A DNA stretch of 52,473 nt from an uncultured Alphaproteobacteria bacterium (GCA_937926445.1 CALBAK010000064.1:1-52473); one strand, 5' to 3'; shown: positions 42,508 through 50,802, counted from the first letter of the stretch. Program-made: numbers and translations. Notes: generated by a model not told the origin, from the sequence alone.

Positions 42508-43032
42508 ATGCGAGCTTGCAAGCAGCTCGTCGAAGTCGGCCGCCGGCAGTTTCTGCGTGGCGGCGGGAGCGTCGCGGTCGGTGCGGCCGCTGCGATGGTC
42601 GGCGGTGGCGAGGCACAGGCGGCGAGCCCTGCTCTGGCTCGCGCCAACTATCCGAGCACGCGTCTCGCGAACATCAAAGATCTCAAGGTCAACGAGCCGA
42701 AGGACGTGACCTATCCCGATGCCGACATGCCGGGCGTGCTTTTGAAGCTCGGCAAGAAGGTGCCGGGTGGCGTCGGTCCAGACGGCGATATCGTCGGCTT
42801 CACGACTATTTGCCCGCACAAGGGTTTCCCGCTCTTCTATCGGGCCGACGACCGCACACTCAACTGCCCCGGCCACTATTCGCGCTTCGACTGTGAGGCG
42901 GGTGGCCAGCAGATTTGGGGTCAGGCTACGCAGAACTTGCCGCAGTACATCCTGCGGGTCGACGCCAAGGGCGACATCTATGCCGAAGGTGTCGACGAGC
43001 TCCTCTATGGCAGGCTCAGCAACGTGCTCTGA
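42508..43032 (+). CDS. aioB: arsenite oxidase small (Rieske) subunit
   Basis: ATG 42508 (M34 of track ORF 42409, GGAGGGAGG RBS). Tat motif GRRQFLRGG. Rieske boxes CPHKGFP and CPGHYSRF. C-terminus ...GDIYAEGVDELLYGRLSNVL matches AioB/AoxA. Confidence 0.85.
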   Translation: MRACKQLVEVGRRQFLRGGGSVAVGAAAAMVGGGEAQAASPALARANYPSTRLANIKDLKVNEPKDVTYPDADMPGVLLKLGKKVPGGVGPDGDIVGFTTICPHKGFPLFYRADDRTLNCPGHYSRFDCEAGGQQIWGQATQNLPQYILRVDAKGDIYAEGVDELLYGRLSNVL

Positions 43033-43046
43033 AGGGAGGAACGCCC

Positions 43047-45584
43047 ATGGCATTCAAGCGCTTCGTCGACCGCCTCCCGATCATCCCCAACGATGCCAAG
43101 GAGCACACCGCGGTCTGCCACTACTGTATCGTCGGATGTGGCTACAAGGCCTACACCTGGGACGTCAACCGCCAGGGCGGCCCCGCGCCGGGTGAGAACA
43201 AGTTCGGCGTCGACCTCGCGAAGCAGCAAGCCGCCGAGACACCGGCTTGGTACAGCCCGTCGATGTACAACATCGTCAAGCAGAACGGGCGCGACGTCCA
43301 TCTCGTCATCAAGCCCGATCCGAACTGCGTCGTGAACTCCGGGCTCGGCTCGATCCGGGGTGCTCGGATGGCCGAGATGTCCTACAGCCGGACGACCCAG
43401 ACCCAGCAGCAGCGCCTGACCGATCCGATGGTCTGGCGCTACGGCCAAATGCAGCCGACCTCGTGGGACGACGCCCTCGATCTCGTCGCCCGGGTGACGG
43501 CGGCCGTCATCAAGGAGCAAGGGGAAGACGGCGTCTTCGTGTCGGTGTTCGACCATGGTGGCGCGGGCGGTGGCTACGAGAACACCTGGGGCACCGGCAA
43601 GCTCTATTTCGGCGCCATGAAAATCAGGAACATCCGTATCCACAACCGTCCGGCCTACAATTCCGAGGTCCACGCGAGCCGCGACATGGGCGTGGGCGAA
43701 CTCAACAACGCCTACGAGGACGCCGAACTCTGCGACACGATCGTGGCGATCGGCTGCAACCCGCTCGAGACGCAGACCAACTATTTCCTGAACCACTGGG
43801 TTCCGAATCTTCGGGGCGCCACGCTCGACAAGAAAAAGCGGCTCATGCCCGACGAGCCGCACGACAAGGCCAAGATCATCATCGTCGACCCACGCCGCAC
43901 CGTCACCGTGTCGGCCTGCGAGGCCGAGGCCGGCAAGGAGAACGTCCTCCACCTAGCGCTGAAGTCGGGTACCGACCTGGCGCTGTTCAACGCTATTTTT
44001 ACGTACATCGCCGACAAAGGGTGGGTCGACAGAGAGTTCATCGAGAAGAGCACGCTGCGCACCCCGGCGGCGCGGCCGCCGCTCTTCCCGGCACGCGGTG
44101 TGAGCGACGAGAAGCCCGGCCATCTCACGAGCTTCGAGGCGGCCGTCGAGGGCTGTCGGATCTCGATCGAAGAGGCCGCCAAGATCACCGGCCTCGCACC
44201 CGCCGACATCGTCAAGGCGGCCGAGTGGATCGCCATGCCCAAGGCCGGTGGCAAGCGGCGCCGGACGATGTTCGGGTACGAGAAGGGCATCATTTGGGGT
44301 AACGACAACTACCGCACCAACGGTGCCATCGTGAACGTGGCGCTCGCGACCGGTAATGTCGGTCGTCTGGGTGGCGGCGTCGTTCGTCTCGGCGGCCACC
44401 AGGAGGGTTATGTTCGCCCGTCCGATGCGCACGTCGGGCGGCCGGCGGCCTACGTCGACCAGCTCCTGATCAGCGGCCGCGGCGGCGTCCATCACATCTG
44501 GGGCTGCGACCACTACAAGACCACCCTCAATGCGGACCAGTTCAAGCGCGTCTACAAGCGCCGCACCGACATGGTGAAGGATGCCATGAACTCGGTCCCC
44601 GCCGGCGATCGCGACGCCCTCGTCAACGCGATCATGGTGGCGATCCGGCAGGGTGGCCTGTTCGCGGTCGACGTCGACATCGTGCCGTCGAAGATCGGCC
44701 AGGCCTGCCACGTCTGGCTGCCCGCGGCGACCCAGGGCGAGATGAATCTCACCTCGATGAACGGCGAGCGCCGGATGCGGATCACCGAACGGTACATGGA
44801 TCCTCCGGGCCAGGCGATGCCGGACTGCCTGATCGCAGCACGGCTCGCAAATCACCTGGAGCGCGTCTTCCGGGCCATGGGCGACGCCGCCTATGCAGAC
44901 AAATTCAAGGGTTTCGACTGGAAGACCGAGGAAGACGCGTTCATGGACGGCTACCACCAGCACGCGCCGGGTGGGAAGTTCGTCACCTACGAGCGGCTGC
45001 GGGCGATGGGGACCAACGGCTTCCAAGAGCCGGCGGTCGATTTCAAGGACGGCAAGATCATCGGGACTCCGCGTCTTTACGTCGACGGCGTCTTCTCGAC
45101 ACCCGACGGCAAGGCGCGGTTCATGGACGCGCCCTGGCGCGGTCTCCAGGCGGCCGGCAAAACCGAACAGCAGGCGCGCTTCCCGTTCCTGATCAACAAC
45201 GGGCGTGCCAACCACGTCTGGCAAAGCGCGTACCTCGATCAGAAGAACGACCTGGTCATCGACCGGTGGCCGCATGCCTTCATCGAAATGAATCCCGACG
45301 ACATGAAGGAGCTCGGTATCCAGGCGGGTGATCTGGTCGAAATCGTCAACGATGCCGGCTCGACTCAGGCAATGGCCTACCCGACGCCGACGGCCAAGCG
45401 GCGCGAGACCTTCATGCTGTTCGGCTACCCGAACGGCGTGATGGGCAACGTCACGAACGCCGGCGTCAACGAGCTAGTCATTCCCAACTACAAGCAGACC
45501 TGGGCGAACATTCGGAAGCTCGCCTCGGCACCGGAAGGTGCCCGCCACATCAGTTTCAAAGATCAGCATTACCGTTCTGCCTGA
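43047..45584 (+). CDS. aioA: arsenite oxidase large (molybdopterin, 3Fe-4S) subunit
   Basis: ATG 43047 (M45 of track ORF 42915, GGGAGGAA RBS). MAFKRFVDRLPIIPNDAKEHTAVCHYCIVGCGY..., collinear with AioA to the C-terminus ...HISFKDQHYRSA. 845 aa. Confidence 0.9.
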   Translation: MAFKRFVDRLPIIPNDAKEHTAVCHYCIVGCGYKAYTWDVNRQGGPAPGENKFGVDLAKQQAAETPAWYSPSMYNIVKQNGRDVHLVIKPDPNCVVNSGLGSIRGARMAEMSYSRTTQTQQQRLTDPMVWRYGQMQPTSWDDALDLVARVTAAVIKEQGEDGVFVSVFDHGGAGGGYENTWGTGKLYFGAMKIRNIRIHNRPAYNSEVHASRDMGVGELNNAYEDAELCDTIVAIGCNPLETQTNYFLNHWVPNLRGATLDKKKRLMPDEPHDKAKIIIVDPRRTVTVSACEAEAGKENVLHLALKSGTDLALFNAIFTYIADKGWVDREFIEKSTLRTPAARPPLFPARGVSDEKPGHLTSFEAAVEGCRISIEEAAKITGLAPADIVKAAEWIAMPKAGGKRRRTMFGYEKGIIWGNDNYRTNGAIVNVALATGNVGRLGGGVVRLGGHQEGYVRPSDAHVGRPAAYVDQLLISGRGGVHHIWGCDHYKTTLNADQFKRVYKRRTDMVKDAMNSVPAGDRDALVNAIMVAIRQGGLFAVDVDIVPSKIGQACHVWLPAATQGEMNLTSMNGERRMRITERYMDPPGQAMPDCLIAARLANHLERVFRAMGDAAYADKFKGFDWKTEEDAFMDGYHQHAPGGKFVTYERLRAMGTNGFQEPAVDFKDGKIIGTPRLYVDGVFSTPDGKARFMDAPWRGLQAAGKTEQQARFPFLINNGRANHVWQSAYLDQKNDLVIDRWPHAFIEMNPDDMKELGIQAGDLVEIVNDAGSTQAMAYPTPTAKRRETFMLFGYPNGVMGNVTNAGVNELVIPNYKQTWANIRKLASAPEGARHISFKDQHYRSA

Positions 45585-45658: not shown

Positions 45659-45701
45659 GCAACCCTGGCCTTTTAGCGGGATTCCGTCCGAAGGGGGTCG
45701 A

Positions 45702-46075
45702 ATGCACGATCGAGCGGCGGTCGAAGCCTCGGCGGTACTCGCGCAGGAAACGAGGCTCTGGGTTGGTCGAACCCCGATCGGCGCCGGACGCGGCGGGTAT
45801 CGGCGAGCGAGCTCGCGCAGAGGGCCGCGGTTCCCGCCTCGACCCTCTCGTTCCACCTGGAGCGTCTCGAGCGGGCGGGTCTCTTCGGCGCCTGTCGGCG
45901 GGGCCGCCAGATCCTCTACACCGCGGAACTCGAGAAGATGCGCCGGCTGCTCGCCTTCCTGACCGGTAATTGTCGCGGCGGCCGTCCGGAGCTCTGCGGC
46001 GGGCTCGTGCGGGCCTTCGAGGCGTCCGGTCCCGCCGCAACGCACCTGCCCGCCAAAGCGAGGAGTTGCAGCTGA
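45702..46075 (+). pseudogene. ArsR/SmtB-family regulator, apparently frameshifted
   Basis: ATG 45702 (AAGGGGG RBS) opens MHDRAAVEASAVLAQETRL (compare ArsR ALADPTRL). About 50 nt later the recognisable wHTH continues in another frame: SELAQRAAVPASTLSFHLERLERAGLFGACRRGRQILY...NCRGGRPELCGG, ending at TGA 46073-46075, which overlaps the arsC ATG. No single frame spans both parts, and the second frame has no start codon. Confidence 0.35.
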
Positions 46076-46584
46076 TGGATCGGCCCTACAACGTCCTTTT
46101 CCTATGCACCGGCAACTCTGCCCGCTCGATCATGGCCGAGTGTGCACTCGGCCGCTGGGGCGCCGGCCGCTTCAAAGCTTATTCCGCGGGAAGCCACCCG
46201 ACCGGCATCGTTCACCCGCTCACCATCGAGACGCTGCGGAGCCTCAATTACGACACGAGCGGCCTTCGCTCGAAGAGCTGGGACGAGTTCTCGGCTCCCG
46301 GCGCACCTCAAATCGACTTCGTGTTTACCGTCTGCGATCGAGCCTCGGCGGAGGTCTGCCCGGTCTGGCCCGGCCGGCCGCTCACTGCACATTGGGGCGT
46401 GGAAGACCCGGTCGCTTTCGAGGGAACCGAAGCCGAACGCCTCGCCTTTTTCCGCCGCGTCTACGGTCATCTCGAGAACCGCATCAAGATCTTCGTGAGT
46501 CTCCCGATCGCCTCGCTCGATCGGCCCTCGCTCCAGAAGCGACTCGACGAGATCGGTCGCACCGCACCAACCGCCGAAGCCTGA
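46075..46584 (+). CDS. arsC: arsenate reductase, LMW-PTP/thioredoxin-coupled type
   Basis: ATG 46075 (M36 of track ORF 45970, GAGGAG RBS). CTGNSARSIMAE P-loop (CX5R), CDRASAEVCP second cysteine pair. 169 aa. Confidence 0.85.
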   Translation: MDRPYNVLFLCTGNSARSIMAECALGRWGAGRFKAYSAGSHPTGIVHPLTIETLRSLNYDTSGLRSKSWDEFSAPGAPQIDFVFTVCDRASAEVCPVWPGRPLTAHWGVEDPVAFEGTEAERLAFFRRVYGHLENRIKIFVSLPIASLDRPSLQKRLDEIGRTAPTAEA

Positions 46585-46674
46585 AGCGTCGTACCTGGCT
46601 TCGACCTTCCCCGTTGCCTCGCACCCGGCCTCCTCGGCACCGGGTCGCTCGTCTGCGCCCTCGGCTCCGGGACG

Positions 46675-47283
46675 ATGGCCGAGCGGCTCGCAGCCGGGAA
46701 CCCAGCCCTCGCGCTGGTCGGCAACACCGCGGCGACGGGCGCGATCCTCGCGGTCCTCATTTTGATCTTGGGGCTCACCTCGGGCGCGCGCATGAGTTCG
46801 GCCGTCTCGCGCGCCATGGCAGGGCGTGGGGCGATCCCGGCGCGCGAGGCCGCGGCCTATGTCGTCGTGCAGGCGCTCGATGGGGTCGCGGGCACGATGG
46901 CGGCGCATTTCGTGTTCGAGCTGCCGCTCCCCCAGCTCGGCGGTGCCGTCAGGACCGGGTTCGGCCAGTGGGCCGCCGAGTTCGTAGCGAGCTTCGGCCT
47001 GCTCGCGACGATCCTGGGCTGTCTGCGCTTCGCACTGGACACGGTCGCCCCGGCAGTCGCGCTCTACATCACCTCGGCGTCCTGGTTCACGAGTTCGACG
47101 AGCTTCGCCGATCAGGCAGTCACCCTCGCCGGCGCCCTCTCCGACACCTTAACGGGGATCCGGCCGGTCGACCTTCCCGCCTTCTGGCTCCCGCAGATCG
47201 CCGGTGCCGCGGCCGCCGTCGTCGTCTTCGAATGGTTGCTCGCAGACCGTCGCGCCACGGACCCTCGCGCCGACGGCGGCTGA
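46675..47283 (+). CDS. MIP/aquaporin-like channel with degenerate NPA motifs; reading frame open from the arsC stop codon
   Basis: Track ORF 202 aa. It aligns to AqpZ from helix 2 onward, with SGARMSSAVS in place of SGxHxNPAVT and TSSTSFADQ in place of NPAR. The 30 codons upstream (46585-46674) are open in the same frame, have no start codon, and encode an AqpZ-like helix 1 (RCLAPGLLGTGSLVCALGSG). That frame is also the arsC frame, separated only by TGA 46582-46584. Confidence 0.5.
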   Translation: MAERLAAGNPALALVGNTAATGAILAVLILILGLTSGARMSSAVSRAMAGRGAIPAREAAAYVVVQALDGVAGTMAAHFVFELPLPQLGGAVRTGFGQWAAEFVASFGLLATILGCLRFALDTVAPAVALYITSASWFTSSTSFADQAVTLAGALSDTLTGIRPVDLPAFWLPQIAGAAAAVVVFEWLLADRRATDPRADGG

Positions 47284-47421
47284 TTCTCGCCACGCTCCCG
47301 ACGGGCTGCGTGCCGCTTCGCTGCTCGCCGGCTTGAAGCGACCGGGGATATCCTGCCTCGAGCCCCGAGCCGAACTTAGGGGCCCCGATCGCCGCACTCT
47401 GGCGCAACGGCTGCCGACCCC

Positions 47422-50611: not shown

Positions 50612-50802
50612 CGCACCCCTCGCCGGCGACCGTCGGGCCTGCGCACCCGCGGCGCTTCGCGATCTCCTCATATAGGATCCGGGCCAGCGTTCCGTCGACC
50701 GCCCCATTGCCGCGGCGGACGGCGGCGAGGACGGCGCGGTTGCGGCCCGGGCCGCCACCTTCTAGGACGCCTGGAGAGCCGTGTCGGGAGGGATGAGGCC
50801 CG

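What the first reader, a model, noticed from the sequence alone, without database searches (positions are those of the whole stretch)
46075..47283. Aquaporin-like ORF lies in the arsC frame behind a single TGA and has degenerate NPA boxes and no start codon of its own
Seen: arsC (46075..46584) ends with TGA at 46582-46584. The same frame stays open for 232 further codons to 47283.

The first 30 codons after the TGA contain no ATG/GTG/TTG, yet they encode an AqpZ-like helix 1 (RCLAPGLLGTGSLVCALGSG). The first in-frame ATG (46675) would yield a channel lacking helix 1.

Both NPA boxes are replaced: SGARMSSAVS for NPA-1 and TSSTSFADQ for NPAR.

Established: channel-enzyme fusions of the AqpS-ArsC type (MIP N-terminal, ArsC C-terminal) exist in actinobacteria. 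The reverse order is not one I know.

Inference: this is either an ArsC-MIP fusion interrupted by a nonsense mutation (or dependent on TGA readthrough), a decaying pseudogene, or a sequencing error at the stop.
Basis: partly seen in the sequence, partly recalled or inferred. Interest (0 to 1): 0.55.

Follow-up and report, generated by a model that had tools for sequence, protein, structure and literature searches.

The report
Decayed AqpS-type arsenite channel gene
The aquaporin-like reading frame behind arsC is a dead copy of an AqpS-type arsenite channel gene. It was always a separate gene. It has lost its own start codon and its pore motifs, while the arsenate reductase gene next to it stays intact. 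This is ordinary gene decay, not a new fusion protein.

Summary
arsC (46075..46584) ends in TGA, and the same frame stays open to 47283. That frame has no start-like codon in its first 30 codons, and both NPA boxes are replaced.

The fusion reading fails. In the syntenic orthologous locus L001 (about 87% nucleotide identity, aioB-aioA-arsR-arsC-MIP) the same TGA is followed by the same 6-nt spacer and a GTG start. The window has GTA at that codon (46591-46593). The shared frame is therefore inherited by chance from a 6-nt spacer. In more distant loci the two genes lie in different frames (40 of 52).

The channel gene also has:
- a 3-nt deletion in helix 1;
- changes at 15 of 80 family-invariant columns (other members average 0.6);
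- substitutions that hit conserved and variable columns equally often;
- a 4-6-fold faster protein rate than its sisters.

ArsC shows no acceleration. arsR upstream carries a frameshift.

Six other assemblies from other sequencing runs share every lesion, so this is not a sequencing error.

Verdict: a pseudogenised AqpS-family channel, and a dead arsR, flanking a live arsC. Interest is low.

Noticed in passing: single ORFs in the order ArsC then MIP do exist in public metagenomes.

The parts
45702..46075 (+). arsR remnant (pseudogene). It is 374 nt long. A 1-nt deletion near 45797 shifts the frame, and the reading from the ATG stops at 45960-45962. The C-terminal CC pair is now CR.
   Evidence: DNA alignment to L001 and L002. 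Frame-corrected translation and comparison with 27 homologues. No arsR gene was called in the sister assemblies L005, L006 and L100-L103, whereas a 124-aa arsR is called in L001.
46075..46584 (+). arsC, an intact arsenate reductase of the low-molecular-weight phosphatase type (169 aa). Its ATG overlaps the arsR stop (TGATG). Its TGA is at 46582-46584.
   Evidence: Pfam LMWPc 57 bits. CX5R loop and the two downstream cysteines are present. Window-branch dN 0.023 against dS 0.354. Relative-rate test 7 vs 6 changes, p=0.78.
46585..46590 (+). 6-nt spacer between the arsC stop and the former channel start. Its length is why the two genes share a frame.
   Evidence: The same 6-nt spacing occurs in L001 and L009-L013. 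It is 8 nt in L007 and L008, and ranges from -23 to +210 nt elsewhere.
46591..46593 (+). Former start codon of the channel gene: GTA here, GTG in the closest orthologues.
   Evidence: DNA alignment A2 and start codons in L001 and L009-L013. All 22 aligned homologues begin within a residue or two of this position.
46591..47283 (+). AqpS-family MIP pseudogene (230 codons plus stop). The frame is open but there is no usable start.
   Evidence: 76% identical to the intact 231-aa orthologues P0002 and P0003. Pfam MIP 26 bits, against 82-102 bits in orthologues. 15 of 80 invariant columns changed. Substitutions are spread without regard to conservation. Relative-rate test p between 1e-6 and 7e-4.
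46657..46662 (+). Site of a 3-nt deletion in helix 1 (CAVVGSG becomes CA-LGSG).
46675..46677 (+). First in-frame ATG. This is the family-invariant internal Met31 (GSGIMAE), not an evolved start. Gene callers used it to call a 202-aa product that lacks helix 1.
   Evidence: M31 is invariant in alignment A1. Gene calls.
46789..46800 (+). Remnant of NPA box 1: H-M-N-P has become R-M-S-S (CGC ATG AGT TCG).
   Evidence: All 117 other family members have NPA, NPV or NPT here.
47110..47133 (+). Remnant of NPA box 2 and the selectivity-filter arginine: NPAVTLAR has become DQAVTLAG.
   Evidence: All 117 other members have NPA here.

Best explanation
The frame 46591..47283 is a pseudogene of an AqpS-type MIP channel. 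AqpS is the arsenic-operon aquaglyceroporin that lets As(OH)3, made by ArsC, leave the cell down its gradient.

**Ancestral state.** The locus was aioB-aioA-arsR-arsC-aqpS, with three separate ars genes. The channel gene began at a GTG 6 nt after the arsC TGA. I infer that it was translated by coupling to arsC termination.

**What changed in this lineage.**
- The GTG became GTA.
- One codon was deleted from helix 1.
- The helix-1 glutamate, both NPA boxes and the filter arginine were replaced.
- Amino-acid changes accumulated without regard to conservation.
- arsR was also inactivated, by a 1-nt deletion.
- arsC stayed under strong purifying selection.

**Why the frame looks fused.** The shared frame with arsC is an inherited accident of the 6-nt spacer. 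The long open frame survives because stop codons arise rarely in DNA of 70% G+C.

**Shown:** ancestral separateness, the lesions, gene-specific acceleration and loss of constraint, and presence in several assemblies.

**Inferred:**
- No functional channel is made.
- arsC is now expressed without ArsR control.
- As(III) leaves by a transporter encoded outside this window.
For: **Ancestry and gene separateness**
- Syntenic orthologue L001 (acs-aioB-aioA-arsR-arsC-MIP-macB...) is about 87% identical in DNA. It has TGA, then 6 nt, then GTG.
- The same junction occurs in L009-L013.
- arsC lies directly upstream of the MIP in 52 of 88 loci. They are always two genes, and in different frames in 40 of the 52.

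**Loss of family features**
- The window deviates at 15 of 80 columns that are at least 95% conserved. The 117 other members average 0.58 deviations, with a maximum of 5.
- Pfam MIP score is 26 bits, against 82-102 bits in orthologues.

**Loss of constraint**
- Window-lineage changes hit conserved columns (15 of 80) as often as variable ones (27 of 126), Fisher p=0.72. The sisters P0002 and P0003 have 0 of 65 changes in conserved columns.
- Pairwise dN/dS is 0.39 for the MIP, against 0.04-0.16 for eight neighbouring genes.
- Window-branch omega is about 0.4-0.5. That fits about one third of the branch having evolved neutrally.
- Relative-rate test: 31-35 window-specific changes against 3-10 in the sister, p between 1e-6 and 7e-4. 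ArsC gives 7 against 6, p=0.78.

**Translation**
- No canonical or near-cognate start occurs in the 30 codons after the TGA.
- RNA fold z-score is -0.15 and there is no Rfam match, so no SECIS-like element.

**Other support**
- An open frame after this many random changes is not unlikely: simulation gives P=0.12 for all 90 changes.
- arsR carries a frameshift.
- All lesions are identical in L005, L006 and L100-L103, which come from other runs.
Against: - Window-branch omega is about 0.4-0.5, not 1, and the excess of synonymous changes over the neutral simulation is significant. So constraint acted on part of the branch. I read this as the time before inactivation, but weak residual constraint cannot be excluded.
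- There is no frameshift or internal stop in 230 codons.
- Six of the 15 conserved-site changes fall in the 13 NPA-box columns (P=0.013, a post hoc test). This is more clustered than pure drift predicts. It could mean selection on the pore, either closing it or retuning it, before or instead of simple decay.
- No expression data are available.
Confidence: 0.88

Rival explanations
1. A functional ArsC-MIP fusion is made by readthrough of the TGA at 46582-46584. Alternatively, the locus is a fusion recently interrupted by a nonsense mutation. The channel part would be tethered to the reductase.
For: - The two frames coincide, and the TGA is followed by A.
- The channel has no start of its own.
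- Both ends of a MIP are cytoplasmic (established knowledge), so an N-terminal ArsC is topologically possible.
- Single ORFs in the order ArsC then MIP exist in public data. P0125 has identical DNA in five JGI samples.
Against: - The TGA, the 6-nt spacer and a separate GTG start are present in the closest orthologues. The stop is therefore ancestral and not a new nonsense mutation.
- The channel part has lost both NPA boxes, the filter arginine, the helix-1 glutamate and a helix-1 residue, and it evolves without regard to conservation.
- There is no recoding signal.
- The database fusions are only 45-60% identical to this locus and keep both NPA boxes.
Confidence: 0.03
2. A shortened 202-aa protein starting at ATG 46675 is made and has a new function that does not need NPA boxes (neofunctionalisation). 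Public gene callers annotate this product.
For: - The frame is open, with GC3 of 0.87-0.88.
- Window-branch omega is below 1.
- Changes cluster in the pore boxes (P=0.013).
Against: - The ATG is the invariant internal Met31 of the family. It has only a GGGA 2 nt upstream, read directly from the sequence.
- The product would lack helix 1 of a six-helix fold.
- Codons 1-30 (7 of 25 changed) and the rest (35 of 183 changed) diverged at similar rates. So there is no sign that only the downstream part is protected.
- Conserved structural residues outside the pore are also hit: G99D, Y166S, F189L and M110V.
Confidence: 0.05
3. Sequencing or assembly error at the stop, at the start, or in arsR.
For: None beyond the prior probability for metagenome assemblies.
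Against: - Six other contigs assembled from other runs or analyses are identical across 45690-47300 apart from differences at three positions, none of which touches a lesion. The sources are ERZ6863697, ERZ6863929, ERR9287625, ERR9287617, ERR9287890 and ERR9287621.
- The lesions are about 50 amino-acid substitutions, not one base call.
Confidence: 0.01

Closest known systems
AqpS, the ars-operon aquaglyceroporin of Sinorhizobium meliloti (Yang et al. 2005, as summarised in PMC6205960)
   Same: Same protein family. The annotated S. meliloti AqpS (CP090106.1, 233 aa) is 60% identical to the intact orthologue P0003 and 51% identical to the window remnant over almost its full length. Like AqpS, the family sits in an arsR/arsC operon.
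   Different: - Gene order here is arsR-arsC-aqpS. In S. meliloti it is arsR-aqpS-arsC-arsH.
- The partner ArsC here is the LMW-phosphatase type, not the glutaredoxin type.
- The window copy is dead: no start, no NPA boxes and no filter arginine.
AqpS-ArsC channel-enzyme fusions of actinobacteria (Wu, Song and Beitz 2010, as described in PMC6205960 and PMC9775063)
   Same: The same two domains are involved: a MIP channel and an LMW-phosphatase-type ArsC. The same logic applies, of reducing As(V) next to the exit channel.
   Different: - Those are single polypeptides with the channel at the N-terminus and ArsC at the C-terminus.
- Here the order is ArsC then MIP.
- A conserved stop separates the two genes.
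- The orthologues are two genes.
ArsC(N)-MIP(C) single ORFs in public metagenomes (for example P0121-P0126 and P0125)
   Same: Same domain order as a hypothetical readthrough product of this locus. They are 45-60% identical to it over 90-99% of its length.
   Different: - They are continuous ORFs that keep both NPA boxes and the CX5R loop.
- They are not close relatives of this lineage.
- In P0125 the junction contains TGATG in another frame, which points to a frame change near the arsC 3' end rather than loss of an in-frame stop.
- Many are singletons, and some have a scrambled ArsC tail, so part of the set may be assembly artefacts.

Membership tests
MIP / aquaporin superfamily (PF00230), as a functional channel | Profile match above the curated threshold | tested here: inconclusive
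   26.3 bits against a cut-off of 25. Intact orthologues score 82-102 bits. Descent from the family is clear (E about 1e-94 to P0002), but the score has collapsed.
MIP / aquaporin superfamily (PF00230), as a functional channel | First NPA box (SGAHxNPAV) | tested here: not met
   It reads SGARMSSAV. All 117 other family members have NPA, NPV or NPT.
MIP / aquaporin superfamily (PF00230), as a functional channel | Second NPA box followed by the selectivity-filter arginine (NPAVxxAR) | tested here: not met
   It reads DQAVTLAG. All 117 others have NPA, and R183 is 100% conserved.
MIP / aquaporin superfamily (PF00230), as a functional channel | Complete helix 1 with its conserved glutamate, and a start codon ahead of it | tested here: not met
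   E15G, A14P, a one-codon deletion, GTG changed to GTA, and no start-like codon for 30 codons.
AqpS-type ars-operon MIP (by descent) | Closest similarity to AqpS-family proteins, and a position next to arsR and arsC | tested here: met
   76% identical to the syntenic orthologues. 51% (window) and 60% (orthologue) identical to the annotated S. meliloti AqpS. arsC lies directly upstream in 52 of 88 related loci.
AqpS-type ars-operon MIP (by descent) | As(OH)3 conductance | not testable with these tools
   This needs transport assays. It has not been shown even for the intact orthologues of this clade.
LMW-phosphatase-type arsenate reductase (ArsC, pI258 type) | LMWPc fold, a CX5R(S/T) loop and two downstream cysteines | tested here: met
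   Pfam LMWPc 57 bits. CTGNSARS, VCD and VCPVWPG are present and align with invariant columns. Purifying selection acts on the window branch. The NCBIfam equivalog cut-off is not reached: TIGR02691 scores 74.7 against 174.3. It is therefore a relative of the pI258 subfamily, not a member of it.
Channel-enzyme fusion (one polypeptide carrying MIP and ArsC) | A single uninterrupted ORF spanning both domains | tested here: not met
   A TGA at 46582-46584 is present in seven assemblies of this lineage and in the orthologues L001-L004 and L009-L013.
Programmed stop-codon recoding (selenocysteine or readthrough) | A recoding signal such as a SECIS-like hairpin just downstream of the UGA, with conservation of the recoded arrangement | tested here: not met
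   Fold z-score -0.15. No Rfam match at E up to 1. Related loci use other frames and spacings.
Pseudogene | A disabling lesion plus gene-specific loss of constraint relative to intact orthologues | tested here: met
   Start loss, an indel, 15 of 80 invariant columns changed, substitutions independent of conservation, and a 4-6-fold rate acceleration that is absent from the adjacent arsC.

The most novel reading that the evidence does not exclude
The pore-dead MIP body is still made at a low level by readthrough of the arsC UGA, or by reinitiation. It would serve as a membrane anchor that places ArsC at the membrane. On this reading the lineage is an intermediate on the path to the ArsC-MIP single ORFs seen elsewhere.

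A milder variant is that the pore was closed by selection. The support for that is the excess of hits in the NPA boxes (P=0.013). The rationale is that an As(OH)3-permeable channel is a liability for an arsenite oxidiser living in As(III).
Probability: 0.04. Interest if true: 0.5.

Novelty: already known. Interest (0 to 1): 0.14.

Why it matters
It matters little beyond correct annotation.

- Public gene calls list a 202-aa "MIP" at this position. It should be labelled a pseudogene, and the arsR remnant should be too.
- The locus illustrates how an in-frame stop and a long open frame in GC-rich DNA can mimic an interrupted fusion.
- For the biology of this organism, it suggests that this arsenite-oxidiser lineage has given up the AqpS exit and entry route and ArsR control, while keeping ArsC.
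- The side observation may deserve its own look: reductase-first ArsC-MIP single ORFs occur in metagenomes, and the papers I could search describe only the channel-first order.

Tried and rejected
- **Fusion interrupted by a nonsense mutation:** rejected, because the orthologues have the same TGA and their own GTG.
- **Selenocysteine or structured recoding signal:** no stable hairpin (z -0.15) and no Rfam family.
- **Alternative start codons:** none of ATG, GTG, TTG, CTG, ATT, ATC or ATA occurs in the 30 codons after the TGA.
- **Sequencing error:** rejected by six further assemblies.
- **Exhaustive representative search with the conceptual readthrough protein:** I used the search for homologous proteins instead.
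- **The search for related loci on genome contigs:** its patterns came from the degenerate window peptide, so it returned only relatives at 45-57% identity and not the organism itself. The loci were still useful for the spacing and frame survey.
- **Search for another arsenite transporter in the window:** Pfam scans of 30 ORFs found no Acr3, ArsB, ArsH or ArsM.
- **Literature:** Wu et al. 2010 is not held. The run accessions are not mentioned in any paper. No paper was found that describes reductase-first fusions.
- **First arsR analysis:** it used a start coordinate one base off and was redone.

Full report
**1. Observation**

- arsC occupies 46075..46584. It matches Pfam LMWPc at 57 bits and ends in TGA at 46582-46584.
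- The same frame then stays open for 232 codons, to the TGA at 47281-47283.
- None of the first 30 codons is ATG, GTG or TTG. None is CTG, ATT, ATC or ATA either.
- The first ATG is at 46675.

The conceptual product is a real relative of MIP channels and not a chance GC-rich ORF. It matches thousands of proteins of about 230 aa. The best intact ones, P0002 and P0003, are 76% identical over 99% of its length, with E about 1e-94. The stretch before the first ATG aligns to their helix 1.

Both NPA boxes are replaced:
- SGAHxNPAV has become SGARMSSAV.
- SFANPAVTLAR has become SFADQAVTLAG.

**2. Is it a broken fusion?**

No. The protein P0003 is encoded on a JGI metagenome contig (L001). That contig is syntenic with the window over 10 kb at about 87% nucleotide identity. 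Its gene order is acetyl-CoA synthetase, aioB, aioA, arsR (124 aa), arsC (169 aa), MIP (231 aa), then macB, an ABC ATPase and a membrane-fusion protein on the other strand.

The junctions compare as follows:
- L001 reads GCC TGA GCG CCC GTG TCC GGC TTC GAT.
- The window reads GCC TGA AGC GTC GTA CCT GGC TTC GAC.

So the TGA and a 6-nt spacer are ancestral. The orthologue's channel gene starts at a GTG. The window has GTA at exactly that codon (46591-46593).

The other close relative, P0002 (L009-L013), also has TGA, then 6 nt, then GTG. In a Geminicoccaceae MAG (L007, L008) the spacer is 8 nt, so the genes lie in different frames.

I surveyed 88 related loci. arsC lies directly upstream of the MIP in 52 of them. 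They are always two genes, spaced from -23 to +210 nt, and in different frames in 40 of the 52. The common frame is an inherited accident of a 6-nt spacer.

**3. State of the channel gene**

Besides the lost start there is a 3-nt deletion in helix 1: CAVVGSG has become CA-LGSG.

I aligned the window product with 117 family members.
- It departs from the consensus at 15 of 80 columns that are at least 95% conserved.
- The other members average 0.58 departures, with a maximum of 5.
- The 15 changes are A14P, E15G, V25del, I30T, L45V, H69R, N71S, P72S, G99D, M110V, Y166S, N176D, P177Q, R183G and F189L.
- The Pfam MIP score is 26 bits, against 82-102 bits for the orthologues.

Changes specific to the window lineage fall on conserved columns (15 of 80) as often as on variable ones (27 of 126), Fisher p=0.72. 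The two sister sequences have no lineage-specific change in 65 conserved columns.

| Measure | MIP remnant | Comparison |
|---|---|---|
| Pairwise dN/dS against L001 | 0.39 | 0.04-0.16 for eight neighbouring genes, including arsC at 0.12 |
| Window-branch omega | about 0.4-0.5 | about 0.065 for arsC (dN 0.023, dS 0.354) |
| Tajima relative-rate test | 31-35 window-specific changes vs 3-10 in the sister, p 1e-6 to 7e-4 | arsC: 7 vs 6, p=0.78 |

An omega of 0.4-0.5 together with 19% of invariant columns changed fits a gene that was constrained for about two thirds of the branch and neutral for the last third. That split is my inference.

The open frame is not evidence of function. Random placement of the observed 90 nucleotide changes leaves the frame open in 12% of simulations, and more often if only the neutral fraction is counted.

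**4. Neighbours**

*arsR.* The arsR upstream (45702..46075) is 374 nt long.
- A 1-nt deletion near 45797 shifts the frame, and the reading stops at 45960-45962.
- The frame-corrected translation has RVFRLLIQ changed to WVGRTPIG.
- The C-terminal Cys-Cys pair is changed to Cys-Arg.
- Gene callers found no arsR in the sister assemblies.

*arsC.* It is intact: the CX5R loop and both downstream cysteines are present, and it is under purifying selection.

*Rest of the window.* No other arsenic transporter is encoded in the 52-kb window. If ArsC is still useful, the As(III) exit must therefore be encoded elsewhere. This is an inference.

**5. Not an error, and no recoding signal**

Six other contigs from other runs or analyses are identical to the window over 45690-47300 apart from differences at three positions, described in section 8. 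None of them touches a lesion. The sources are ERZ6863697, ERZ6863929, ERR9287625, ERR9287617, ERR9287890 and ERR9287621.

The RNA downstream of the UGA folds no better than shuffled sequence (z -0.15). No Rfam family matches.

**6. What it is and how it worked**

The intact family is the AqpS family. The annotated aquaglyceroporin AqpS of Sinorhizobium meliloti is 60% identical to P0003 and 51% identical to the window remnant. According to PMC6205960:
- AqpS lets internally produced As(III) leave the cell.
- It makes cells sensitive to external arsenite.
- Channel-first AqpS-ArsC fusions exist in actinobacteria. PMC9775063 describes these too.

In the clade studied here the module is arsR-arsC-aqpS, with an ArsC of the low-molecular-weight phosphatase type. 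Start and stop are very close or overlap, which suggests translational coupling (an inference).

The window lineage has lost the channel and the repressor and kept the reductase.

**7. What remains unexplained**

Six of the 15 conserved-site changes lie in the 13 conserved NPA-box columns (hypergeometric P=0.013). The test is post hoc, because these boxes were what drew attention to the locus. It may nonetheless mean that the pore was closed by selection before the gene decayed. That would be plausible in an arsenite oxidiser exposed to As(III). I cannot separate this from chance.

**8. Side observations**

*Reductase-first ORFs.* A search with the conceptual readthrough protein returned 57 clusters of single ORFs in the order ArsC then MIP among the best 120 hits, and two in the order MIP then ArsC.
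- 22 of the 59 have both domains essentially complete.
- One, P0125, is encoded by identical DNA in five JGI samples. Its junction holds TGATG in another frame, which suggests a frame change near the arsC 3' end.
- Others have scrambled ArsC tails or are singletons, and may be artefacts.
- None of the 52 adjacent arsC-MIP pairs I examined, which include species-representative genomes, is fused.
- I found no paper describing this order.

*Polymorphism in this lineage*.
- 46511 C/A changes ArsC A146 to D.
- 46810 C/T changes R76 to C in the MIP remnant.
- One assembly has an extra 1-nt deletion at 46049, in the arsR remnant.

**9. Verdict**

The fusion and error readings are refuted, and the pseudogene reading is supported. 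This is ordinary gene decay in a known family, and interest is low.

Noticed in passing
proteins P0121-P0231; loci L094-L098 (P0125) and L099 (P0170): Many public metagenome ORFs of about 380-430 aa carry an LMW-phosphatase ArsC at the N-terminus and an AqpS-like MIP at the C-terminus. There are 57 such clusters among the best 120 hits, and 22 of the 59 two-domain hits have both domains complete. This is the reverse of the published AqpS-ArsC order. P0125 has identical DNA in five JGI samples, and its junction contains TGATG in another frame. Several others have scrambled ArsC tails or are singletons, so some may be artefacts. No paper describing this order was found.
   Followed up: partly
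window 45702-46075: The arsR upstream of arsC is itself a pseudogene. A 1-nt deletion near 45797 leads to a premature stop at 45960-45962. The first helices are scrambled (RVFRLLIQ to WVGRTPIG), and the C-terminal Cys-Cys pair is reduced to Cys-Arg.
   Followed up: yes
window 46511, 46810 and 46049 (against L005, L006, L100-L103): There is population polymorphism within this lineage. 46511 C/A changes ArsC A146 to D in the C-terminal tail. 46810 C/T changes R76 to C in the MIP remnant. One assembly (L101) has an extra 1-nt deletion at 46049 in the arsR remnant. All are non-synonymous changes or indels.
   Followed up: partly
window 42508-45584; L007 1-4976: The arsR-arsC-aqpS trio follows arsenite oxidase genes aioB and aioA here and in L001. 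In a Geminicoccaceae MAG (L007) it instead follows a different molybdopterin oxidoreductase cluster: a catalytic subunit, a 4Fe-4S subunit, an NrfD-like membrane subunit and a TorD-like chaperone. The trio may therefore travel as a module attached to different arsenic redox enzymes. In the window, the mechanical ORF 42915-45584 over-extends aioA. Gene calls in the sister contigs start at the position equivalent to 43047.
   Followed up: no
window 50624-50802 against L001 10044-11093: L001 has about 1 kb here, including a 225-aa ORF with no Pfam match (L001 10219-10896, minus strand), between the membrane-fusion protein gene and the AAA ATPase gene. The window has only about 180 nt at the same place. 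This is an insertion or deletion difference between the two lineages.
   Followed up: no
proteins P0139, P0148, P0187, P0192, P0204 and P0128-P0138: The same search returned ArsR-ArsC fusion ORFs (HTH_20 plus LMWPc, 443-473 aa) and proteins of about 325-350 aa. The latter carry only LMWPc hits and look like tandem double ArsC. ArsR-ArsC fusions are mentioned in PMC6205960.
   Followed up: no
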